Virus record (IMG/VR): IMGVR_UViG_3300034152_000478
Span: 1-64,000 of that record
Length of the DNA: 64,000 nt
Strand: one strand, 5' to 3'
Source: a virus
The notes below the pieces were generated by a model that was given only the letters and a program-made list of their open reading frames with translations, was not told where the DNA came from and searched no databases. Each line of letters begins with the position of its first letter. Position 1 is the first letter of the stretch. Positions 4,595-15,526 of the stretch are shown in pieces. The translations under genes were made by a program, and so were the position numbers.

Positions 4595-5560
4595 ATGATG
4601 ACCTTCAAAAAATACCCAAGCATCGAAAACAGCTATAGAGACAAATTCGTACAGTATATGCTGGACCAGTATCCGGAGCTGTGCGACGCGGTTTACATCG
4701 TCACTGAAAAAATCGACGGTTCCAACATCCAATTGATCTTTGAACCTTCTAAGCCAGTACAGGTTGCTTCGCGTAATCGGGTATTAACACCTGGCGAAGA
4801 CTTTTTCGGTGTTTGGGATGTGCTACAGGATGTCGAATTGGCCGCGCTGATTAACACTCTGACGCTGTTTGTCGACAAAACCCATCAGACAATCAATCTG
4901 TATGGTGAACTTTTTGGACCTGGAATTCAGAGACGTATTGACTACGGAGACAAGCGTCGTCTGTTGTTTTTCGATGCAGCGATCAATGAAGAGCTGATTC
5001 CACAGGGCGAATTTGTGCAGTTTATGAGCTTGCATGGTTTTCCGAATCTGATGGTTCCTATTGTAACTGTCATCAATACGCTGCAGGCTGCTCTTGACTG
5101 GAGCGTCGAAGATTCTGTTACCAGAGTCAATCCTGATGGTCATAGCGTCCAAGAGAAACGATGTATGGAAGGTGTGGTTATTAAGCCACGCGATAAGGTG
5201 TATCGATCTCATACTGGCAGTACTTTTTACCTCAAGAAGAAAGGTGAGAAGTTCGGCGAAAAAGAGCAGAAGGTCAAAGTGCCGCGTGAGCAGAAGGAAT
5301 ACCGCGAAGAAGTAATCCAGATGTATGAAACGTTTTTTGGCTTGATCAATGAGAATAGGATCAAGAGCGTGTTTTCTAAACATGGTGAAATCGAAGAGCC
5401 TCGTCAAATCGGTGACTACATCAAGCTCGTAATGGCTGATGCCAAAGAGGAGTTTCTCAAAGATTACGAAGATGAGTTGGCACCGTTCAACAAAGATGAG
5501 CTAAAATACGTTTTTAATGTGGGCAACATGATAGTTGGATTGTTAAAGGAGTATCTATGA
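4595..5560 (+). CDS. RNA ligase, Rnl2 family
   Basis: FKKYPSIEN N-terminus; motif I TEKIDGSN; LYGELFG; FFDA; EGVVIKP; LKKK; C-terminal INENRIKSVFSKHG domain typical of T4 Rnl2. Confidence 0.9.
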   Translation: MMTFKKYPSIENSYRDKFVQYMLDQYPELCDAVYIVTEKIDGSNIQLIFEPSKPVQVASRNRVLTPGEDFFGVWDVLQDVELAALINTLTLFVDKTHQTINLYGELFGPGIQRRIDYGDKRRLLFFDAAINEELIPQGEFVQFMSLHGFPNLMVPIVTVINTLQAALDWSVEDSVTRVNPDGHSVQEKRCMEGVVIKPRDKVYRSHTGSTFYLKKKGEKFGEKEQKVKVPREQKEYREEVIQMYETFFGLINENRIKSVFSKHGEIEEPRQIGDYIKLVMADAKEEFLKDYEDELAPFNKDELKYVFNVGNMIVGLLKEYL

Positions 5561-7476: not shown

Positions 7477-7637
7477 TGACAGAACATACTATTAAATGTC
7501 GTATTTGTGGTCGTCCCTATAAGTTCTATGCTCATAAGTGTGGCGATCAATCTGCTTGTCCAGCTTGTATAAGGGCAGCAGAAAAAGAGATACAGCAAGA
7601 TTGGGTGAAAAATCCCAATAGACTTTACAAAACCTAA
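7473..7637 (+). CDS. small zinc-ribbon protein (54 aa, below cutoff)
   Basis: CRICGRPY...CPAC; GAGG RBS; ATGA overlap with the upstream gene. Confidence 0.6.
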   Translation: MMTEHTIKCRICGRPYKFYAHKCGDQSACPACIRAAEKEIQQDWVKNPNRLYKT

Positions 7638-9833: not shown

Positions 9834-9908
9834 GGGTCCGAAGCTTTAAAAGTGAAGCACGAGGCTTTTAACCTCGGGAACAAGGGGCAGTACCTTGCGG
9901 ACCTACCA
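9834..9908 (+). tRNA. tRNA-Lys(TTT), non-canonical T-loop
   Basis: CGAGG-CTTTTAA-CCTCG anticodon arm; A8; T-loop GGCAGTA; ACCA. Confidence 0.8.
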
Positions 9909-12681: not shown

Positions 12682-14265
12682 ATGAACACGAGACTCTTTA
12701 AGAATCAAAGAGGTGCGTTGGCCCCTAAGGCTGACACTGTGAACGACGCTGGTGGAGTCGCCTACAAGCGTACCGACAAGGAAGCCCTGGCGCAGTACGC
12801 GCTGACTGGCACCTTTGGCAATGCGTTTTACGTTACTGCCGAAGTCCAGCTTGATAGGGCTCTGGATCTGGCTGACAAGGTGGATGACGCTTTCGTCGCC
12901 GGTCTGGCTGTCTATGCTCGCCAGTTTGGCTACATGAAGGACATGCCTGCCTTTTTGCTGGCTGTCCTGTGTGCTCGTCAGAGCAAGTATGTCGAGTTCG
13001 TTTTCGAGCGGGTAATCGATAATGCTCGTATGCTGCGTACTTTCGTTCAGATTCTGCGTAGCGGTCTGACTGGAAGAAAGTCTTTCGGTCGGCGTATTAA
13101 GCGACTAATTCGCAACTGGCTTGCTAATAAGTCTGACGACGCGCTTTTCCGTGCGACCGTTGGTCAGAATCCGTCTATGTCTGATATCATCAAGATGGTT
13201 CACCCTAAGGCTGAGGGTCGTTCACGCAATGCTCTCTATGGGTACCTGCTTGACAAGAAGTACGACGGACGCTCTCTACCTAAGTTGGTAAAGGCGTTTG
13301 AGCGCTTCAAGGATACTCCTGGCACGGTTGAGATCCCTGATCTGCCGTTTCGCATGCTGACTCACCTGCCGCTTAAGACTGAGCAGTGGGTGCAGATTGC
13401 AAAGAATATGCCTTGGACTGCCCTTCGTATGAACCTGAATACACTTGCGCGTCATGGTGTTTTCAACGTGGATGGCATGACTGAGTTGATTGCTGGCAAG
13501 TTGCGCGATCCGCAGCTTATCAGACGTGCCAAGGTGTTCCCTTACCAGCTTTTGGCTGCGTATCTGTTTACGCTTGATACTCGGGAGGTTCCGAACGAGA
13601 TTATCGAAGCACTTCAGGATGCGATGGAAATCGCAATTGAGAATGTGCCAGAAATGGATATTCGCGTTGCTGTGTGTCCGGATGTCTCCGGATCGATGGA
13701 CTGGTGCAGCGTGACTGGTAATCGCGGCTCTGCTTCAAGCAAGATCAAGTGTACTCATGTTGCTGGTCTGATTTCGGCTATCTTCATGCGACGTGCGCGT
13801 GACACCATCTTGCTTCCATTCGAGTTTGGCGTCGTGAACATGCGCCTTAACAAGCGTGATAGTGTAATGACTAACGCTCGCAAGATTGCAGATATTGGCG
13901 GAGGCGGAACTAATGTATCTGCTCCTCTCCAGTTGCTGAACAAGCGTAAGGAGAAGGTGGATGCTGTGATTATCGTCTCTGATAACGAGTCTTGGGTTGA
14001 TACTCATGGCTGGTCTGCTCGGCGCGGTACTCGTACCATGTCTGAGTGGGGCACGCTGCGCCAGCGTTGTCCTGAGGCACGCCTGGTGCTTATGGATCTT
14101 GTTGTTGGCGACAATACCCAGGCGCGAAACAAGGCTCAGGAAGTCTACAACGTTGCTGGGTTCTCTGACACGGCGTTGGGTCTTGTGGCCGACTTTGTCG
14201 TAAATGGACCCAACACTCAGCTCGTGGAGGTAATCGAGCAGCATATCCCTGAGCTTGAAGGCTAA
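12682..14265 (+). CDS. rsr: Ro60/TROVE domain RNA-binding protein (Rsr-like) with C-terminal vWA
   Basis: NDAGGVAY N-terminus, TGTFGNAFY, MPWTALRMNLNTL, PYQLLAAY, vWA MIDAS DVSGSM, GGTN, VSDNESW, VAGFSD. Confidence 0.95.
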   Translation: MNTRLFKNQRGALAPKADTVNDAGGVAYKRTDKEALAQYALTGTFGNAFYVTAEVQLDRALDLADKVDDAFVAGLAVYARQFGYMKDMPAFLLAVLCARQSKYVEFVFERVIDNARMLRTFVQILRSGLTGRKSFGRRIKRLIRNWLANKSDDALFRATVGQNPSMSDIIKMVHPKAEGRSRNALYGYLLDKKYDGRSLPKLVKAFERFKDTPGTVEIPDLPFRMLTHLPLKTEQWVQIAKNMPWTALRMNLNTLARHGVFNVDGMTELIAGKLRDPQLIRRAKVFPYQLLAAYLFTLDTREVPNEIIEALQDAMEIAIENVPEMDIRVAVCPDVSGSMDWCSVTGNRGSASSKIKCTHVAGLISAIFMRRARDTILLPFEFGVVNMRLNKRDSVMTNARKIADIGGGGTNVSAPLQLLNKRKEKVDAVIIVSDNESWVDTHGWSARRGTRTMSEWGTLRQRCPEARLVLMDLVVGDNTQARNKAQEVYNVAGFSDTALGLVADFVVNGPNTQLVEVIEQHIPELEG

Positions 14266-14272
14266 ACAAAAT

Positions 14273-14357
14273 ATACCGAGATGCTGGATTGTGTTTACAT
14301 GCATAAGATTAAGGATTTTATCAGCAAAAAACGACACAACCACCCCTTGCTCGGTGT
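14273..14357 (+). ncRNA. Y-RNA-like unit 1 (AU-rich hairpin cargo)
   Basis: ATACCGAG-ATGC...TTGTGT-TTACAT...ACACAA...CTTG-CTCGGTGT. Confidence 0.75.
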
Positions 14358-14372
14358 TTTAACTTGACGAAC

Positions 14373-14485
14373 GTGCAGGAATGCCGACAAGTGATTACAT
14401 GGATAAAGCATTTTTATGTGAGTTGGTTCAAGCCCGACACGCTGCGGTAGCAGTGAAAAAGTCACTGTCATTTTTTGTCCTGCAT
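14373..14485 (+). ncRNA. Y-RNA-like unit 2 (T-arm plus short hairpin cargo)
   Basis: GTGCAGGA-ATGC...ACAT...GTTGG-TTCAAGC-CCGAC...TTTG-TCCTGCAT. Confidence 0.75.
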
Positions 14486-14522
14486 ACTTTATAGGCTGGG
14501 CATCCTTATCTGCCTGCCAGAA

Positions 14523-14584
14523 GTTGGAATGCGCTTGTGTTTACATGTGACATACAAAAGAAACACGAGCACACCTTGTCCAAC
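14523..14584 (+). ncRNA. Y-RNA-like unit 3 (minimal scaffold)
   Basis: GTTGGA-ATGC-GCTTGTGTTT-ACAT...AAACACGAGC...CTTG-TCCAAC. Confidence 0.75.
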
Positions 14585-14600
14585 CGACTTTGAAAACAAT

Positions 14601-14665
14601 CCGGAATGCTGATTGTGAGTACATGACTTGTAATCATTGACCGCTCTCAATCAATCCTTGTCCGG
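14601..14665 (+). ncRNA. Y-RNA-like unit 4 (Thr-UGU anticodon-stem-loop-like cargo)
   Basis: CCGGA-ATGC-TGATTGTGAGT-AC-ATGA-CTTGTAA-TCAT...GCTCTCAATCA...CTTG-TCCGG. Confidence 0.75.
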
Positions 14666-14683
14666 TACTAATACGATAACGAT

Positions 14684-14752
14684 CCGGGATGCTGGCTGTG
14701 TGTACATGCTATGAAAAAGCTCCTTTATTCCACACTGCTAAAACTTGCCCGG
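14684..14752 (+). ncRNA. Y-RNA-like unit 5 (Phe-GAA anticodon-loop-like cargo)
   Basis: CCGGG-ATGC...ACAT-GCT-ATGAAAA-AGC...CTTG-CCCGG. Confidence 0.72.
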
Positions 14753-14769
14753 CTCTAAAATAACAACTC

Positions 14770-14893
14770 ACTGGGATGCTGTTGTGTATACATTCAGAGG
14801 TAGCTTAACAGGTAGAGCAGCGGCGAAAGCCGAAGACGAAGGTTCGAGTCCTTCCCATTGAGCCAAAAACTACTCAACAATTACTTGCCCAGT
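14770..14893 (+). ncRNA. Y-RNA-like unit 6 containing a complete anticodon-less tRNA cloverleaf (14794-14865)
   Basis: ACTGGG-ATGC...ACAT-[TCAGAGG..D arm..CGGC-GAAA-GCCG..GAAGG-TTCGAGT-CCTTC-CCATTGA-GCCA]...CTTG-CCCAGT. Confidence 0.8.
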
Positions 14894-14904
14894 TCTTTAA
14901 TGAT

Positions 14905-15043
14905 AGGTTTGGAATGCCTGTTGTGATTACATGCTTGTAACGCCGGTAATGTTGGTTCGAATCCAGCCGTCCCCGATTTATGGGGGCGTCGTCTAATGGC
15001 AGGACACCGTTAAAATAGTCACAGCGATCCCTCGTCCGAGCCT
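14905..15043 (+). ncRNA. Y-RNA-like unit 7, YrlA-like circularly permuted tRNA domain
   Basis: AGGTTTGGA-ATGC...ACAT; T-arm GTTGG-TTCGAAT-CCAGC; looped acceptor CGTCCCC/GGGGGCG; D-arm GTCT..GGAC; CTCG-TCCGAGCCT. Confidence 0.82.
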
Positions 15044-15060
15044 TCACCAAAGAATAACAT

Positions 15061-15196
15061 GACGGGATGCTGTTAGGTTTACATGATCAGGAACTGAATG
15101 TCATAGGTTCGAATCCTATCTCCTCGACCACTAACGAGGAGTAGCTCAGTTGGATAGAGCGTCAGTAAAATGCGACTTGACGAACCCTTGCCCGTC
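15061..15196 (+). ncRNA. Y-RNA-like unit 8, YrlA-like circularly permuted tRNA domain
   Basis: GACGGG-ATGC...ACAT; ACTGA/TCAGT stem; T-arm ATAGG-TTCGAAT-CCTAT; acceptor CTCCTCG-ACCACTAA-CGAGGAG; D-arm GCTC..GAGC; CTTG-CCCGTC. Confidence 0.85.
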
Positions 15197-15206
15197 TTTT
15201 TAAATT

Positions 15207-15337
15207 TGAGGTATGCAGGCGTGGGTCCACATGGGACCCTGTGCAGTGGACATCTGGCCCGGCATTTTGATTCGCAAGCGCGGAGGGAGCCCAGCCGGGG
15301 AATAACTGCTCCCCAGGGGTCCCGCCTACATATCTCA
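15207..15337 (+). ncRNA. divergent unit 9, GC-rich structured RNA lacking the CTTG motif
   Basis: TGAGGTATGCAGGCG/CGCCTACATATCTCA closing stem (14 of 15 positions pair); ATGC-N12-ACAT spacing kept. Confidence 0.6.
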
Positions 15338-15351
15338 TAATAAAAAACTAT

Positions 15352-15445
15352 GCTGGAATGCTGTTTCGGGTTTACATGTGACCATCATAACATCTATGCT
15401 CGGGAGACCGGGCACTGACAACGACTCGGGCATACCTTGTCCAGC
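15352..15445 (+). ncRNA. Y-RNA-like unit 10 (GNRA hairpin cargo), followed by T7
   Basis: GCTGGA-ATGC-TGTTTCGGGTT-TACAT...TGCTCGG-GAGA-CCGGGCA...GACTCGGGCA..CTTG-TCCAGC-TTTTTTT. Confidence 0.75.
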
Positions 15446-15526
15446 TTTTTTTGATAGCCGGTAGAGAGGAATAAGTCATATTGCTCTGGAGCCAGAAATG
15501 GCTCCAACGCAATAAGGAGGTGGCTT

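What the first reader, a model, noticed from the sequence alone, without database searches (positions are those of the whole stretch)
14770..14893. A complete, non-permuted tRNA cloverleaf with a GAAA tetraloop instead of an anticodon, nested inside a Y scaffold
Seen at 14794-14865: TCAGAGG/CCATTGA acceptor (one A-A mismatch), U8-A9, D-arm GCTT-AACAGGTA-GAGC, stem CGGC-GAAA-GCCG, T-arm GAAGG-TTCGAGT-CCTTC, then G-CCA. It is joined to the scaffold through its acceptor ends. YrlA is joined through the anticodon stem instead. Inference: it could be excised by RNase P and 3' trimming to give an anticodon-less tRNA that cannot decode and lacks a target for anticodon nucleases. Alternatively it stays tethered as a decoy for elbow- or acceptor-binding proteins.
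Basis: partly seen in the sequence, partly recalled or inferred. Interest (0 to 1): 0.8.

Follow-up and report, generated by a model that had tools for sequence, protein, structure and literature searches.

The report
Phage Y RNA carrying anticodon-less tRNA
Behind a phage's Ro60 gene lie about nine small partner RNAs (Y RNAs), and one carries a complete tRNA look-alike whose anticodon loop is replaced by a 3-4 base cap. It is a rare, conserved variant of the known tRNA-mimicking Y RNAs; it cannot decode, and it probably presents a tRNA shape to tRNA-handling proteins.

Summary
Window 14794-14865 is a standard-order cloverleaf: Rfam tRNA 46.5 bits against a cut-off of 29. It has every elbow nucleotide, a 7-bp acceptor stem and an encoded GCCA, but its anticodon arm is CGGC-GAAA-GCCG. 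It sits inside a two-stem scaffold (14770-14893). The same scaffold, with AUGC facing CUUG and then UACAU, is shared by eight other units directly downstream of a phage Ro60 (TROVE/vWA) gene. Two of those units hit Rfam YrlA.

I found the same design in two other phage lineages, with caps GAA and CAAU. Across the three, 93% of cells pair and 9 pairs show compensatory changes. RNAalifold predicts the same fold on its own. The short loop is therefore conserved, but the GNRA sequence and the CCA are not. The two closest relatives of the phage lack the unit. A more distant relative keeps a 7-nt loop in a different topology.

Best reading: a Y RNA whose effector module is a non-decoding tRNA mimic, in the order reported for Deinococcus Yrn1. 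It is probably an RNase P substrate, as M. smegmatis YrlA is. No expression or binding data exist. I class it as a new variant of a known kind. Earlier notes of this scan describe similar tRNA-shaped Y RNAs on other DNA.

The parts
12682..14265 (+). Phage Ro60 (TROVE + Ro60-type vWA) gene, 527 aa. The Y-like RNA array starts a few bases after its stop codon.
   Evidence: Pfam vWA_Ro60 2.6e-16 and TROVE 3.3e-08. Thousands of Ro60 homologues found.
14273..15446 (+). All share the 5' strand G(G/A)ATGC-N-TACAT. Eight also have the 3' strand CTTG + closing stem or a close variant. I did not examine the 3' closing strand of unit 1.
   Evidence: Motif scan; hand reading; partial table. Unit 8 (15060-15200) hits Rfam YrlA at 45.3 bits and unit 7 (14924-15033) at 22.1 bits, both below the cut-off of 69. 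A terminator-like site closes the array at 15428-15442.
14770..14775 (+). Unit 6, closing stem 1, 5' strand (ACTGGG)
   Evidence: Pairs with 14888-14893. 4 of 6 pairs change on both sides in L056.
14776..14780 (+). Conserved internal-loop bases ATGCT. They correspond to AUGC in the Rfam YrlA consensus and are the presumed Ro60-contact strand.
   Evidence: Present in all nine units. Aligned to the YrlA model in units 7 and 8. The Ro60 contact is an inference from PMC4201824.
14781..14787 (+). Unit 6, stem 2, 5' strand (GTTGTGT)
   Evidence: Pairs with 14872-14878. There is one U-U mismatch in the window, which is a G.U pair in L008.
14788..14793 (+). Single-stranded 5' linker ATACAT. TACAT is invariant in all units. 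It would act as the 5' leader, with U at position -1, if RNase P acts here.
   Evidence: The RNase P role is inference.
14794..14865 (+). tRNA-like cloverleaf in standard order: acceptor 14794-14800 / 14855-14861; D arm 14803-14818; stub anticodon arm 14820-14833 with loop GAAA at 14825-14828; variable region 14834-14837; T arm 14838-14854; G73 at 14862; CCA at 14863-14865.
   Evidence: Rfam RF00005 46.5 bits. Cloverleaf is the MFE of the isolated part. Covariation.
14866..14871 (+). Single-stranded 3' linker AAAACT
   Evidence: Length and sequence vary among homologues.
14872..14878 (+). Unit 6, stem 2, 3' strand (ACTCAAC)
14879..14887 (+). Internal loop AATTACTTG. It contains the conserved CTTG that faces ATGC.
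   Evidence: CTTG is seen in six of the nine units by hand reading, with TTTG in unit 2 and CTCG in unit 7 (unit 1 not examined), and it is in the YrlA consensus.
14888..14893 (+). Unit 6, closing stem 1, 3' strand (CCCAGT), followed by TCTTT

Best explanation
Unit 6 is a Y RNA gene of the phage. It is one of about nine non-coding RNAs probably co-transcribed with the phage Ro60 gene.

Its two-stem closing helix, with the AUGC/CUUG internal loop, is the module that docks Ro60. This rests on inference from homology with the YrlA scaffold.

Its other end is an effector module built as a complete, standard-order tRNA mimic:
- a 7-bp acceptor stem;
- D and T arms with all elbow-forming bases;
- a 4-nt variable loop;
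- an anticodon arm cut down to a 4-5 bp stem with a 3-4 nt cap.

It therefore cannot read a codon. What selection keeps is the L-shape: the elbow plus the acceptor/T stack.

The most likely mechanism is that the RNA holds a tRNA-shaped bait next to Ro60. A tRNA-recognising protein, not yet identified, is then brought to Ro60, or Ro60 is brought to it. This is how Y RNAs tether Ro60 to effectors such as PNPase.

The module has a 7-bp acceptor stem, a single-stranded leader ending in U and, in two of three members, RCCA. Host RNase P therefore probably nicks it at 14793/14794. The two pieces would stay together through the 13 bp of scaffold, as reported for M. smegmatis YrlA.

Shown here: sequence, fold, conservation and genomic linkage. 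Inferred: Ro60 binding, RNase P nicking and the partner protein.
For: Structure:
- Rfam tRNA 46.5 bits with a 4-base loop.
- The cloverleaf is the MFE of the isolated part.
- RNAalifold reproduces scaffold plus cloverleaf.

Scaffold identity:
- All nine units behind the Ro60 gene share the 5' strand of the same frame.
- Units 7 and 8 align to the YrlA model with AUGC and CUUG in the same places.

Conservation:
- L008 (Ro60 62% identical) has the unit at 92% identity over 137 nt. The other units of the two arrays align at 75-88% over 71 nt or less, apart from one 23-nt exact word match.
- L056 (Ro60 43% identical) has the same design, with 4 compensatory pairs in stem 1 and others in the acceptor, anticodon and T stems.
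- Loops are GAAA, GAA and CAAU, so a short loop is kept while its sequence drifts.
- G18, G19, U54, U55, C56, A58, U8, A14 and A21 are present in all three members, read.

Precedents (PMC4201824; Wang et al. 2018 preprint):
- Y RNAs tether Ro60 to effectors.
- Yrn1 has the D - anticodon-like arm - T order.
- M. smegmatis YrlA, with a 7-bp acceptor stem, is cut by RNase P and receives CCA in vivo.
- YrlA conservation points to an elbow-binding partner.

Context: the phage carries 12-13 tRNA genes and a T4 Rnl2-type RNA ligase.
Against: - There are no expression, end-mapping or Ro60-binding data for any unit.
- The family has only three members, two of them nearly identical, so the covariation rests mostly on one comparison.
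- The single-sequence fold is no better than shuffles (z -0.58).
- The unit is missing from the two closest relatives, L003 and L004 (Ro60 83-84% identical). It is therefore dispensable or recently exchanged.
- The Ro-contact motif here is GG(G/A)AUGC rather than the published GNCGAAN0-1G.
- Nothing identifies the partner protein.
Confidence: 0.6

Rival explanations
1. A precursor for a free, anticodon-less tRNA. RNase P cuts at 14793/14794 and 3' processing trims to the encoded CCA. This releases a 72-nt tRNA-shaped RNA that leaves the scaffold. It would act in trans as a non-decoding decoy or inhibitor of tRNA-binding enzymes, such as host anticodon nucleases.
For: - 7-bp acceptor stem, U at -1, G73 and an encoded CCA in the window and in L008.
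- 9 of 11 phage tRNA genes in the window also encode CCA.
- M. smegmatis YrlA is cut by RNase P and gets CCA (PMC4201824).
- In L056 the unit lies inside a tRNA array, so the transcript meets the tRNA-processing enzymes anyway.
Against: - The L056 member has A73-UGA instead of RCCA and C at -1, so a mature CCA end is not a conserved feature.
- The 13-bp scaffold is conserved with compensatory changes. A mere processing leader and trailer would not need that.
- The 3' trailer runs into two helices and a presumed Ro60 site, which would hinder exonuclease trimming (inference).
- No enzyme for CCA addition is encoded by the phage.
Confidence: 0.2
2. A decaying pseudo-tRNA. An ordinary phage tRNA gene landed in, or was duplicated into, a Y scaffold, lost three loop bases and is drifting without function.
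For: - The unit is absent from the closest relatives L003 and L004.
- The related L097 unit keeps a 7-nt loop, CUACGAA, which suggests descent from a real tRNA.
- The acceptor stem carries a mismatch.
Against: - The design recurs in three phage lineages whose Ro60 proteins are 43-62% identical. It keeps compensatory pairs in every helix and intact elbow bases.
- The loops are short in all three but differ in sequence.
- The A5xA68 mismatch and G4.U69 wobble are themselves conserved in all three.
- Unit 6 is the best-conserved part of the array between the window and L008.
Confidence: 0.07
3. The capped stem is a second Ro60-binding site. GGCGAAAG (window) and GGCGAAG (L008) match the published Ro-contact motif GNCGAAN0-1G. 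One RNA could then bridge two Ro60 rings, or fold back on its own.
For: - The motif matches exactly in two members, including the N0-1 length variation.
- A Thermus phage Ro60 forms higher-order and dimeric complexes with Y-like RNAs that carry CGAA motifs (PMC12135203).
Against: - L056 has GGGCAAUC there, which does not match.
- The motif has six fixed bases, so a chance match within 130 nt is not rare (roughly 5%, my estimate).
- In YrlA the motif lies in the 5' strand of the closing helix, not in a hairpin cap.
- The scaffolds of this array use GG(G/A)AUGC instead.
Confidence: 0.05

Closest known systems
Deinococcus radiodurans Yrn1 (Y RNA 1), as modelled by Chen et al. 2014 (PMC4201824)
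   Same: It is a Ro60/Rsr-bound Y RNA whose effector end has tRNA-like arms in standard order: D-like region, then an 'anticodon arm' with a 5-bp stem and a loop shorter than 7 nt, then a T arm. The Ro-binding helix leaves from the acceptor side. It is encoded beside the Ro60 gene and near a tRNA gene.
   Different: - Yrn1 lacks a full D arm, a variable region and a distinct 7-bp acceptor stem, and its loop is 6 nt.
- Its Ro-binding helix is of the metazoan type.
- Unit 6 is a near-perfect cloverleaf, above the Rfam tRNA cut-off, with acceptor stem, G73-CCA, single-stranded linkers, a 3-4 nt cap and a YrlA-type scaffold.
- Sequence homology to Yrn1 was not tested, because I had no Yrn1 sequence or model.
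YrlA (Rfam RF02553), including M. smegmatis YrlA
   Same: - The scaffold is the same: a closing stem, AUGC facing CUUG, and a second stem.
- The location beside a Ro60 gene on the same strand is the same.
- Both carry a tRNA-mimicking effector module with canonical D and T arms.
- The M. smegmatis form has a 7-bp acceptor stem and is cut by RNase P.
- Two true YrlA-type units sit in the same array.
   Different: - YrlA is circularly permuted (T arm, closed acceptor hairpin, D arm) and is joined through the anticodon stem.
- Unit 6 is in standard order, is joined through open acceptor ends, and keeps a capped anticodon stub.
- The YrlA model gives no hit on unit 6 at E up to 5.
Canonical tRNA (Rfam RF00005)
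   Same: A cloverleaf with all four arms, elbow nucleotides, U8, A14 and A21, a 4-nt variable loop, a discriminator base and CCA. It scores 46.5 bits.
   Different: There is no 7-nt anticodon loop, no U33 and no anticodon. It is embedded in a 13-bp scaffold. The acceptor stem has a conserved A-A mismatch. ARAGORN does not call it.
tRNA-like elements released by RNase P from longer RNAs (for example the mammalian lncRNA 3'-end tRNA-like structures cited in the Wang et al. 2018 preprint)
   Same: A tRNA-shaped, non-decoding element inside a larger non-coding transcript that tRNA-processing enzymes can recognise.
   Different: These are eukaryotic, unrelated in sequence and not linked to Ro60. 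Cleavage of unit 6 is only predicted.

Membership tests
tRNA (RF00005) | Cloverleaf of acceptor, D, anticodon and T arms scoring above the family cut-off | tested here: met
   46.5 bits against a cut-off of 29, model positions 1-71. The L008 copy scores 41.9 bits.
tRNA (RF00005) | 7-nt anticodon loop with U33 and an anticodon | tested here: not met
   4-nt loop GAAA in the window, GAA in L008, CAAU in L056. Opening base pairs symmetrically gives 6 or 8 nt, never 7, in the window.
tRNA (RF00005) | Elbow-forming bases (G18, G19, U54, U55, C56, A58) and U8-A14 | tested here: met
   Read directly from the aligned sequences of all three members. The 15-48 pair is A-C in the window, which is not the usual R-Y pair.
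tRNA (RF00005) | Free mature 5' end and 3' CCA end; aminoacylation | not testable with these tools
   No RNA runs could be listed. CCA is encoded in the window and L008 but not in L056.
YrlA (RF02553) | Encoded next to a Ro60 gene on the same strand | tested here: met
   505 nt downstream of the Ro60 stop codon, same strand, within the array.
YrlA (RF02553) | Closing helix with the conserved 5' AUGC and 3' CUUG internal loop (the Ro-binding module) | tested here: met
   The sequence matches the consensus positions seen when units 7 and 8 align to the model. The stems covary. The published motif GNCGAAN0-1G reads GGGAUG here, a variant.
YrlA (RF02553) | Circularly permuted tRNA-like domain (T arm, closed acceptor stem-loop, D arm) joined through the anticodon stem | tested here: not met
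   The order is acceptor 5' strand, D, anticodon stub, T, acceptor 3' strand.
YrlA (RF02553) | Covariance-model score at or above the cut-off (69 bits) | tested here: not met
   No YrlA match overlaps 14770-14893 at E up to 5. Even units 7 and 8 score only 22 and 45 bits.
Yrn1-type Y RNA (D. radiodurans) | tRNA-like arms in standard order, with the Ro-binding helix on the acceptor side and a short-looped anticodon-like arm | tested here: met
   The structure found here fits the description in PMC4201824.
Yrn1-type Y RNA (D. radiodurans) | Sequence homology to Yrn1 | not tested
Y RNA (functional definition) | Bound and stabilised by Ro60 | not testable with these tools
   Needs co-immunoprecipitation or EMSA.

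The most novel reading that the evidence does not exclude
The phage uses its Ro60 as a display stand for a set of tRNA parts. Unit 6 is the piece that offers a whole tRNA body that cannot be cut in the anticodon loop. After RNase P nicking it exposes a tRNA-like 5' end and, in some phages, a CCA end. It would work as an uncleavable decoy or trap for host tRNA-targeting defence nucleases or other tRNA-sensing immunity, holding them next to Ro60 and its partner exonuclease.
Probability: 0.12. Interest if true: 0.85.

Novelty: new variant of a known kind. Interest (0 to 1): 0.55.

Why it matters
Y RNAs are thought to be modular adaptors that bring Ro60 together with other proteins. For the tRNA-like bacterial and phage forms, the partner is still unknown.

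This unit shows that the same Ro-binding scaffold can carry a tRNA shape in the opposite orientation to YrlA, within one array. The anticodon end is stubbed and the acceptor end faces Ro60. The feature common to both orientations is the elbow, which narrows the search for the partner.

It also gives a clean natural construct for three tests:
- whether RNase P and other tRNA enzymes act on Y RNAs;
- whether phage Ro60 particles interfere with host tRNA-directed defences;
- how tRNA genes are recruited and remodelled into Y RNAs. The related L097 unit still has a 7-nt loop.

Tried and rejected
- **Sequencing runs for the array:** none was listed, so there are no expression or end data.
- **Phage GenBank search:** only a weak Ro60-gene match to Myxococcus phage Mx1.
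- **Exact D-arm/stub pattern in viral contigs:** no match.
- **Junction pattern TACAT-N0-1-TCNGAGGTAGCTTA in viral and metagenome contigs:** besides the L056 contig and its twin L092, the five other matches were chance hits without any tRNA shape.
- **D-arm pattern:** nothing in genome contigs. In viral contigs it gave L097.
- **T-arm/acceptor pattern:** 57 matching stretches (56 new loci), and none is a new member by model R1. The viral ones are YrlA-type units or unrelated.
- **Model R1 hits with 4-nt 'loops' in other loci (L062, L016, L032, L065, L046):** these are type II or long-variable-arm tRNAs whose variable hairpin was aligned to the stub. Rejected as relatives.
- **Ancestry of the tRNA body:** the best matches are a mix of Gly, Asn, Gln and Phe tRNAs at low identity, for example 47 of 78 columns to the phage's own tRNA-Gly. 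No progenitor can be named. U1-A72 with G73 recalls bacterial tRNA-Gln/Asn, from my own knowledge only.
- **GAAA as a GNRA tetraloop for a receptor contact:** unlikely to be essential, because L008 has GAA and L056 has CAAU.
- **Cargo swapping inside one scaffold between the window and L003/L004:** rejected. Alignment shows that those phages simply lack unit 6, and their similar-looking units correspond to units 5 and 8.
- **Phage-encoded CCA-adding enzyme or RtcB:** not found.
- **Promoter/terminator scan:** not above shuffles, apart from a terminator-like site at the end of the array.

Full report
**Setting**

The window is the first 64 kb of a 150,882-bp IMG/VR virus record rated complete. 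ORF 12682-14265 (+) encodes a 527-aa Ro60 protein, with Pfam vWA_Ro60 at 2.6e-16 and TROVE at 3.3e-08. It has thousands of Ro60 homologues.

From a few bases after its stop codon to about 15446 there is no long ORF. Instead there are nine tandem units that share a frame. The frame is a closing stem, (G/A)ATGC, a second stem strand, then TACAT, a variable cargo, the return strand, CTTG or a close variant, and the closing strand. I read the 3' side by hand for units 2 to 9 only.

Unit 8 (15060-15200) matches Rfam YrlA at 45.3 bits and unit 7 at 22.1 bits. Both are below the cut-off of 69, but AUGC and CUUG align to the consensus. The array is therefore a set of Y-RNA-like genes behind a phage Ro60 gene. 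The phage also has 12 ARAGORN tRNA genes plus one found only by Rfam. A T4 Rnl2-type RNA ligase lies at 4595-5560. I found no RtcB and no CCA-adding enzyme.

**The observation**

Unit 6 spans 14770-14893. The Rfam tRNA model gives 46.5 bits (cut-off 29; E 9e-7 over the window), and it places four bases where the seven-base anticodon loop belongs. ARAGORN does not call it.

The 72-nt part alone folds into the cloverleaf as its minimum-energy structure. The full design of two scaffold stems plus cloverleaf lies 0.6 kcal/mol above the MFE of the 129-nt unit. On one sequence the fold energy is no better than shuffles (z -0.58), so the case rests on the covariance model and on comparison with homologues.

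The bases that build the tRNA elbow and core are present: U8, A14, G18, G19, A21, U54, U55, C56 and A58. The variable loop is 4 nt. The 15-48 pair is A-C, which is unusual. The acceptor stem has a G4.U69 wobble and an A5xA68 mismatch. The genome holds a single copy.

**Relatives**

I fetched loci through the Ro60 protein.

- **L003 and L004**, the two closest phages (Ro60 83-84% identical, same gene order), have the array but lack unit 6. Their unit 5 is followed directly by unit 7.
- **L008**, a 147-kb contig (Ro60 62% identical), has the unit at 7491-7618.
  - It is 92% identical over 137 nt, scaffold included. The other units of the two arrays align at 75-88% over 71 nt or less, apart from one 23-nt exact word match.
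  - Its cap is GAA on a 5-bp stem.
- **L056**, with identical copies L090 and L092 (Ro60 43% identical), carries the same design inside a tRNA array upstream of its Ro60 gene. It has the scaffold with AATGC...TACAT, acceptor UCUGAGG/CCAUAGA, stub CCGGG-CAAU-CCCGG, discriminator A, and no CCA. ARAGORN labels it 'tRNA-???'.

On the three-sequence alignment:

- 93.1% of cells form standard pairs.
- 9 pairs change on both sides.
- No shuffle out of 500 does as well.
- Sliding the partners drops pairing to 35-54%.
- RNAalifold predicts the same scaffold and cloverleaf without guidance.
- The G4.U69 wobble and the A5xA68 mismatch are kept in all three members.

Searches with exact patterns over viral, metagenome and genome collections added no further member of this topology.

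**A more distant relative**

L097 (11491-11625, minus strand) shares the 5' half of the L056 cargo but differs in two ways. It keeps a 7-nt loop, CUACGAA, on the homologous stem. Its acceptor 5' strand pairs with a segment upstream, so the acceptor stem is a closed hairpin and the scaffold leaves after the T arm. This suggests that these cargos descend from real tRNA genes and were remodelled. It also shows that the stub is the homologue of the anticodon arm rather than of a variable arm.

**What it most likely is**

By position, strand and scaffold it is a Y RNA. By cargo it is a tRNA mimic that cannot decode.

Chen et al. 2014 (PMC4201824) reported the following:

- YrlA RNAs carry a circularly permuted tRNA-like domain joined through the anticodon stem.
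- D. radiodurans Yrn1 has the opposite order. It has a D-like region, an anticodon-like arm with a 5-bp stem and a 6-nt loop, and then a T arm.
- M. smegmatis YrlA has a 7-bp acceptor stem. RNase P cuts it in vitro, and it is cleaved and given CCA in vivo.

Wang et al. (bioRxiv 10.1101/312249) concluded from the YrlA structure that the partner is probably an elbow-binding tRNA protein.

Unit 6 combines a YrlA-type scaffold with a Yrn1-type order, in a far more complete cloverleaf. Across its three members the L-shape and the short anticodon end are conserved. The loop sequence and the CCA are not.

I therefore read it as a Ro60-tethered tRNA bait (confidence 0.6). RNase P nicking at 14793/14794 is likely, at roughly even odds. 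The grounds are the 7-bp stem, U at -1, and RCCA in two members. The pieces would be held together by the 13-bp scaffold. Ro60 binding, the nick and the partner are all inferences.

**Rivals**

- **Full excision to a free anticodon-less tRNA (0.2).** The L056 member without CCA and the conserved scaffold weaken this.
- **A decaying pseudo-tRNA (0.07).** This does not fit the compensatory changes or the conserved non-Watson-Crick pairs.
- **A second Ro60 site (0.05).** The stub matches the published Ro-contact motif GNCGAAN0-1G in the window (GGCGAAAG) and in L008 (GGCGAAG) but not in L056, so I treat it as probable coincidence.

**Novelty**

I found no paper describing a complete standard-order cloverleaf with a stubbed anticodon arm on a YrlA-type scaffold, or arrays mixing both orientations (searches; papers read). 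The layout has a precedent in Yrn1, so I class it as a new variant of a known kind.

Earlier notes of this scan describe related tRNA-shaped Y RNAs on other DNA. These include a standard-order form with a capped anticodon stub in Bacteroidota and a form with a sealed acceptor and a retained anticodon loop. I did not test those notes.

Noticed in passing
window 14273-15446: The whole array behind the Ro60 gene has nine units with my motif. Their cargos differ: short hairpins (units 1, 3, 4, 5), a T-arm-containing module (unit 2), two YrlA-type permuted tRNA domains (units 7, 8) and a GC-rich hairpin module (last unit). Relatives have 4 to 9 units by the same 5'-strand motif.
   Followed up: partly
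window 14797-14798 with 14857-14858: The G4.U69 wobble and the A5xA68 mismatch in the acceptor stem are conserved in all three family members, while neighbouring pairs covary. This could be a recognition feature or a way to tune RNase P cleavage. It is unexplained.
   Followed up: partly
window 14822-14829; L008 about 7546-7552: The stub hairpin reads GGCGAAAG (window) and GGCGAAG (L008). Both match the published Ro60-contact motif GNCGAAN0-1G of YrlA. L056 does not match.
   Followed up: partly
L097 11491-11625 (minus strand): A Y-scaffold unit related to the L056 cargo but with a normal-looking 7-nt loop CUACGAA (ACG). Its acceptor stem is closed as a hairpin on the 5' side, which makes a third way of attaching a tRNA shape to the scaffold. 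Rfam tRNA 54 bits over model positions 6-65.
   Followed up: partly
window 4595-5560: A T4 Rnl2-type RNA ligase (RNA_ligase plus T4_Rnl2_C domains) lies among the tRNA genes, next to GIY-YIG and HNH endonuclease genes and a radical SAM gene. This fits an RNA repair or tRNA maintenance theme.
   Followed up: partly
window 9834-9905: A tRNA-like gene found by Rfam only (38.7 bits) and not by ARAGORN. It has the anticodon loop CUUUUAA (UUU, Lys-like), but its T loop is GGGCAGU and its D loop has no GG, so it lacks a canonical elbow.
   Followed up: partly
L005 4470-4830; L008 4517-4880: Related phages encode a full-length tmRNA (Rfam 119-122 bits) immediately upstream of their Ro60 gene. The window has none.
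   Followed up: no
L056 3234-3300: Another Y-scaffold unit whose cargo looks like a partial tRNA: an anticodon-type stem with 7-nt loop CTCCTAA followed by a T arm, without a clear acceptor stem.
   Followed up: no
L009 4951-5036; L065 6335-6443: Phage tRNA-Asn(GTT) genes with an unusually long variable region. In L065 it is a GGGA-GAAA-TCCC hairpin.
   Followed up: no
L056 1599-1883: In L056 the unit is flanked directly by two tRNA-His genes, so its ends could be made by ordinary tRNA processing of a polycistronic tRNA/Y RNA transcript.
   Followed up: no
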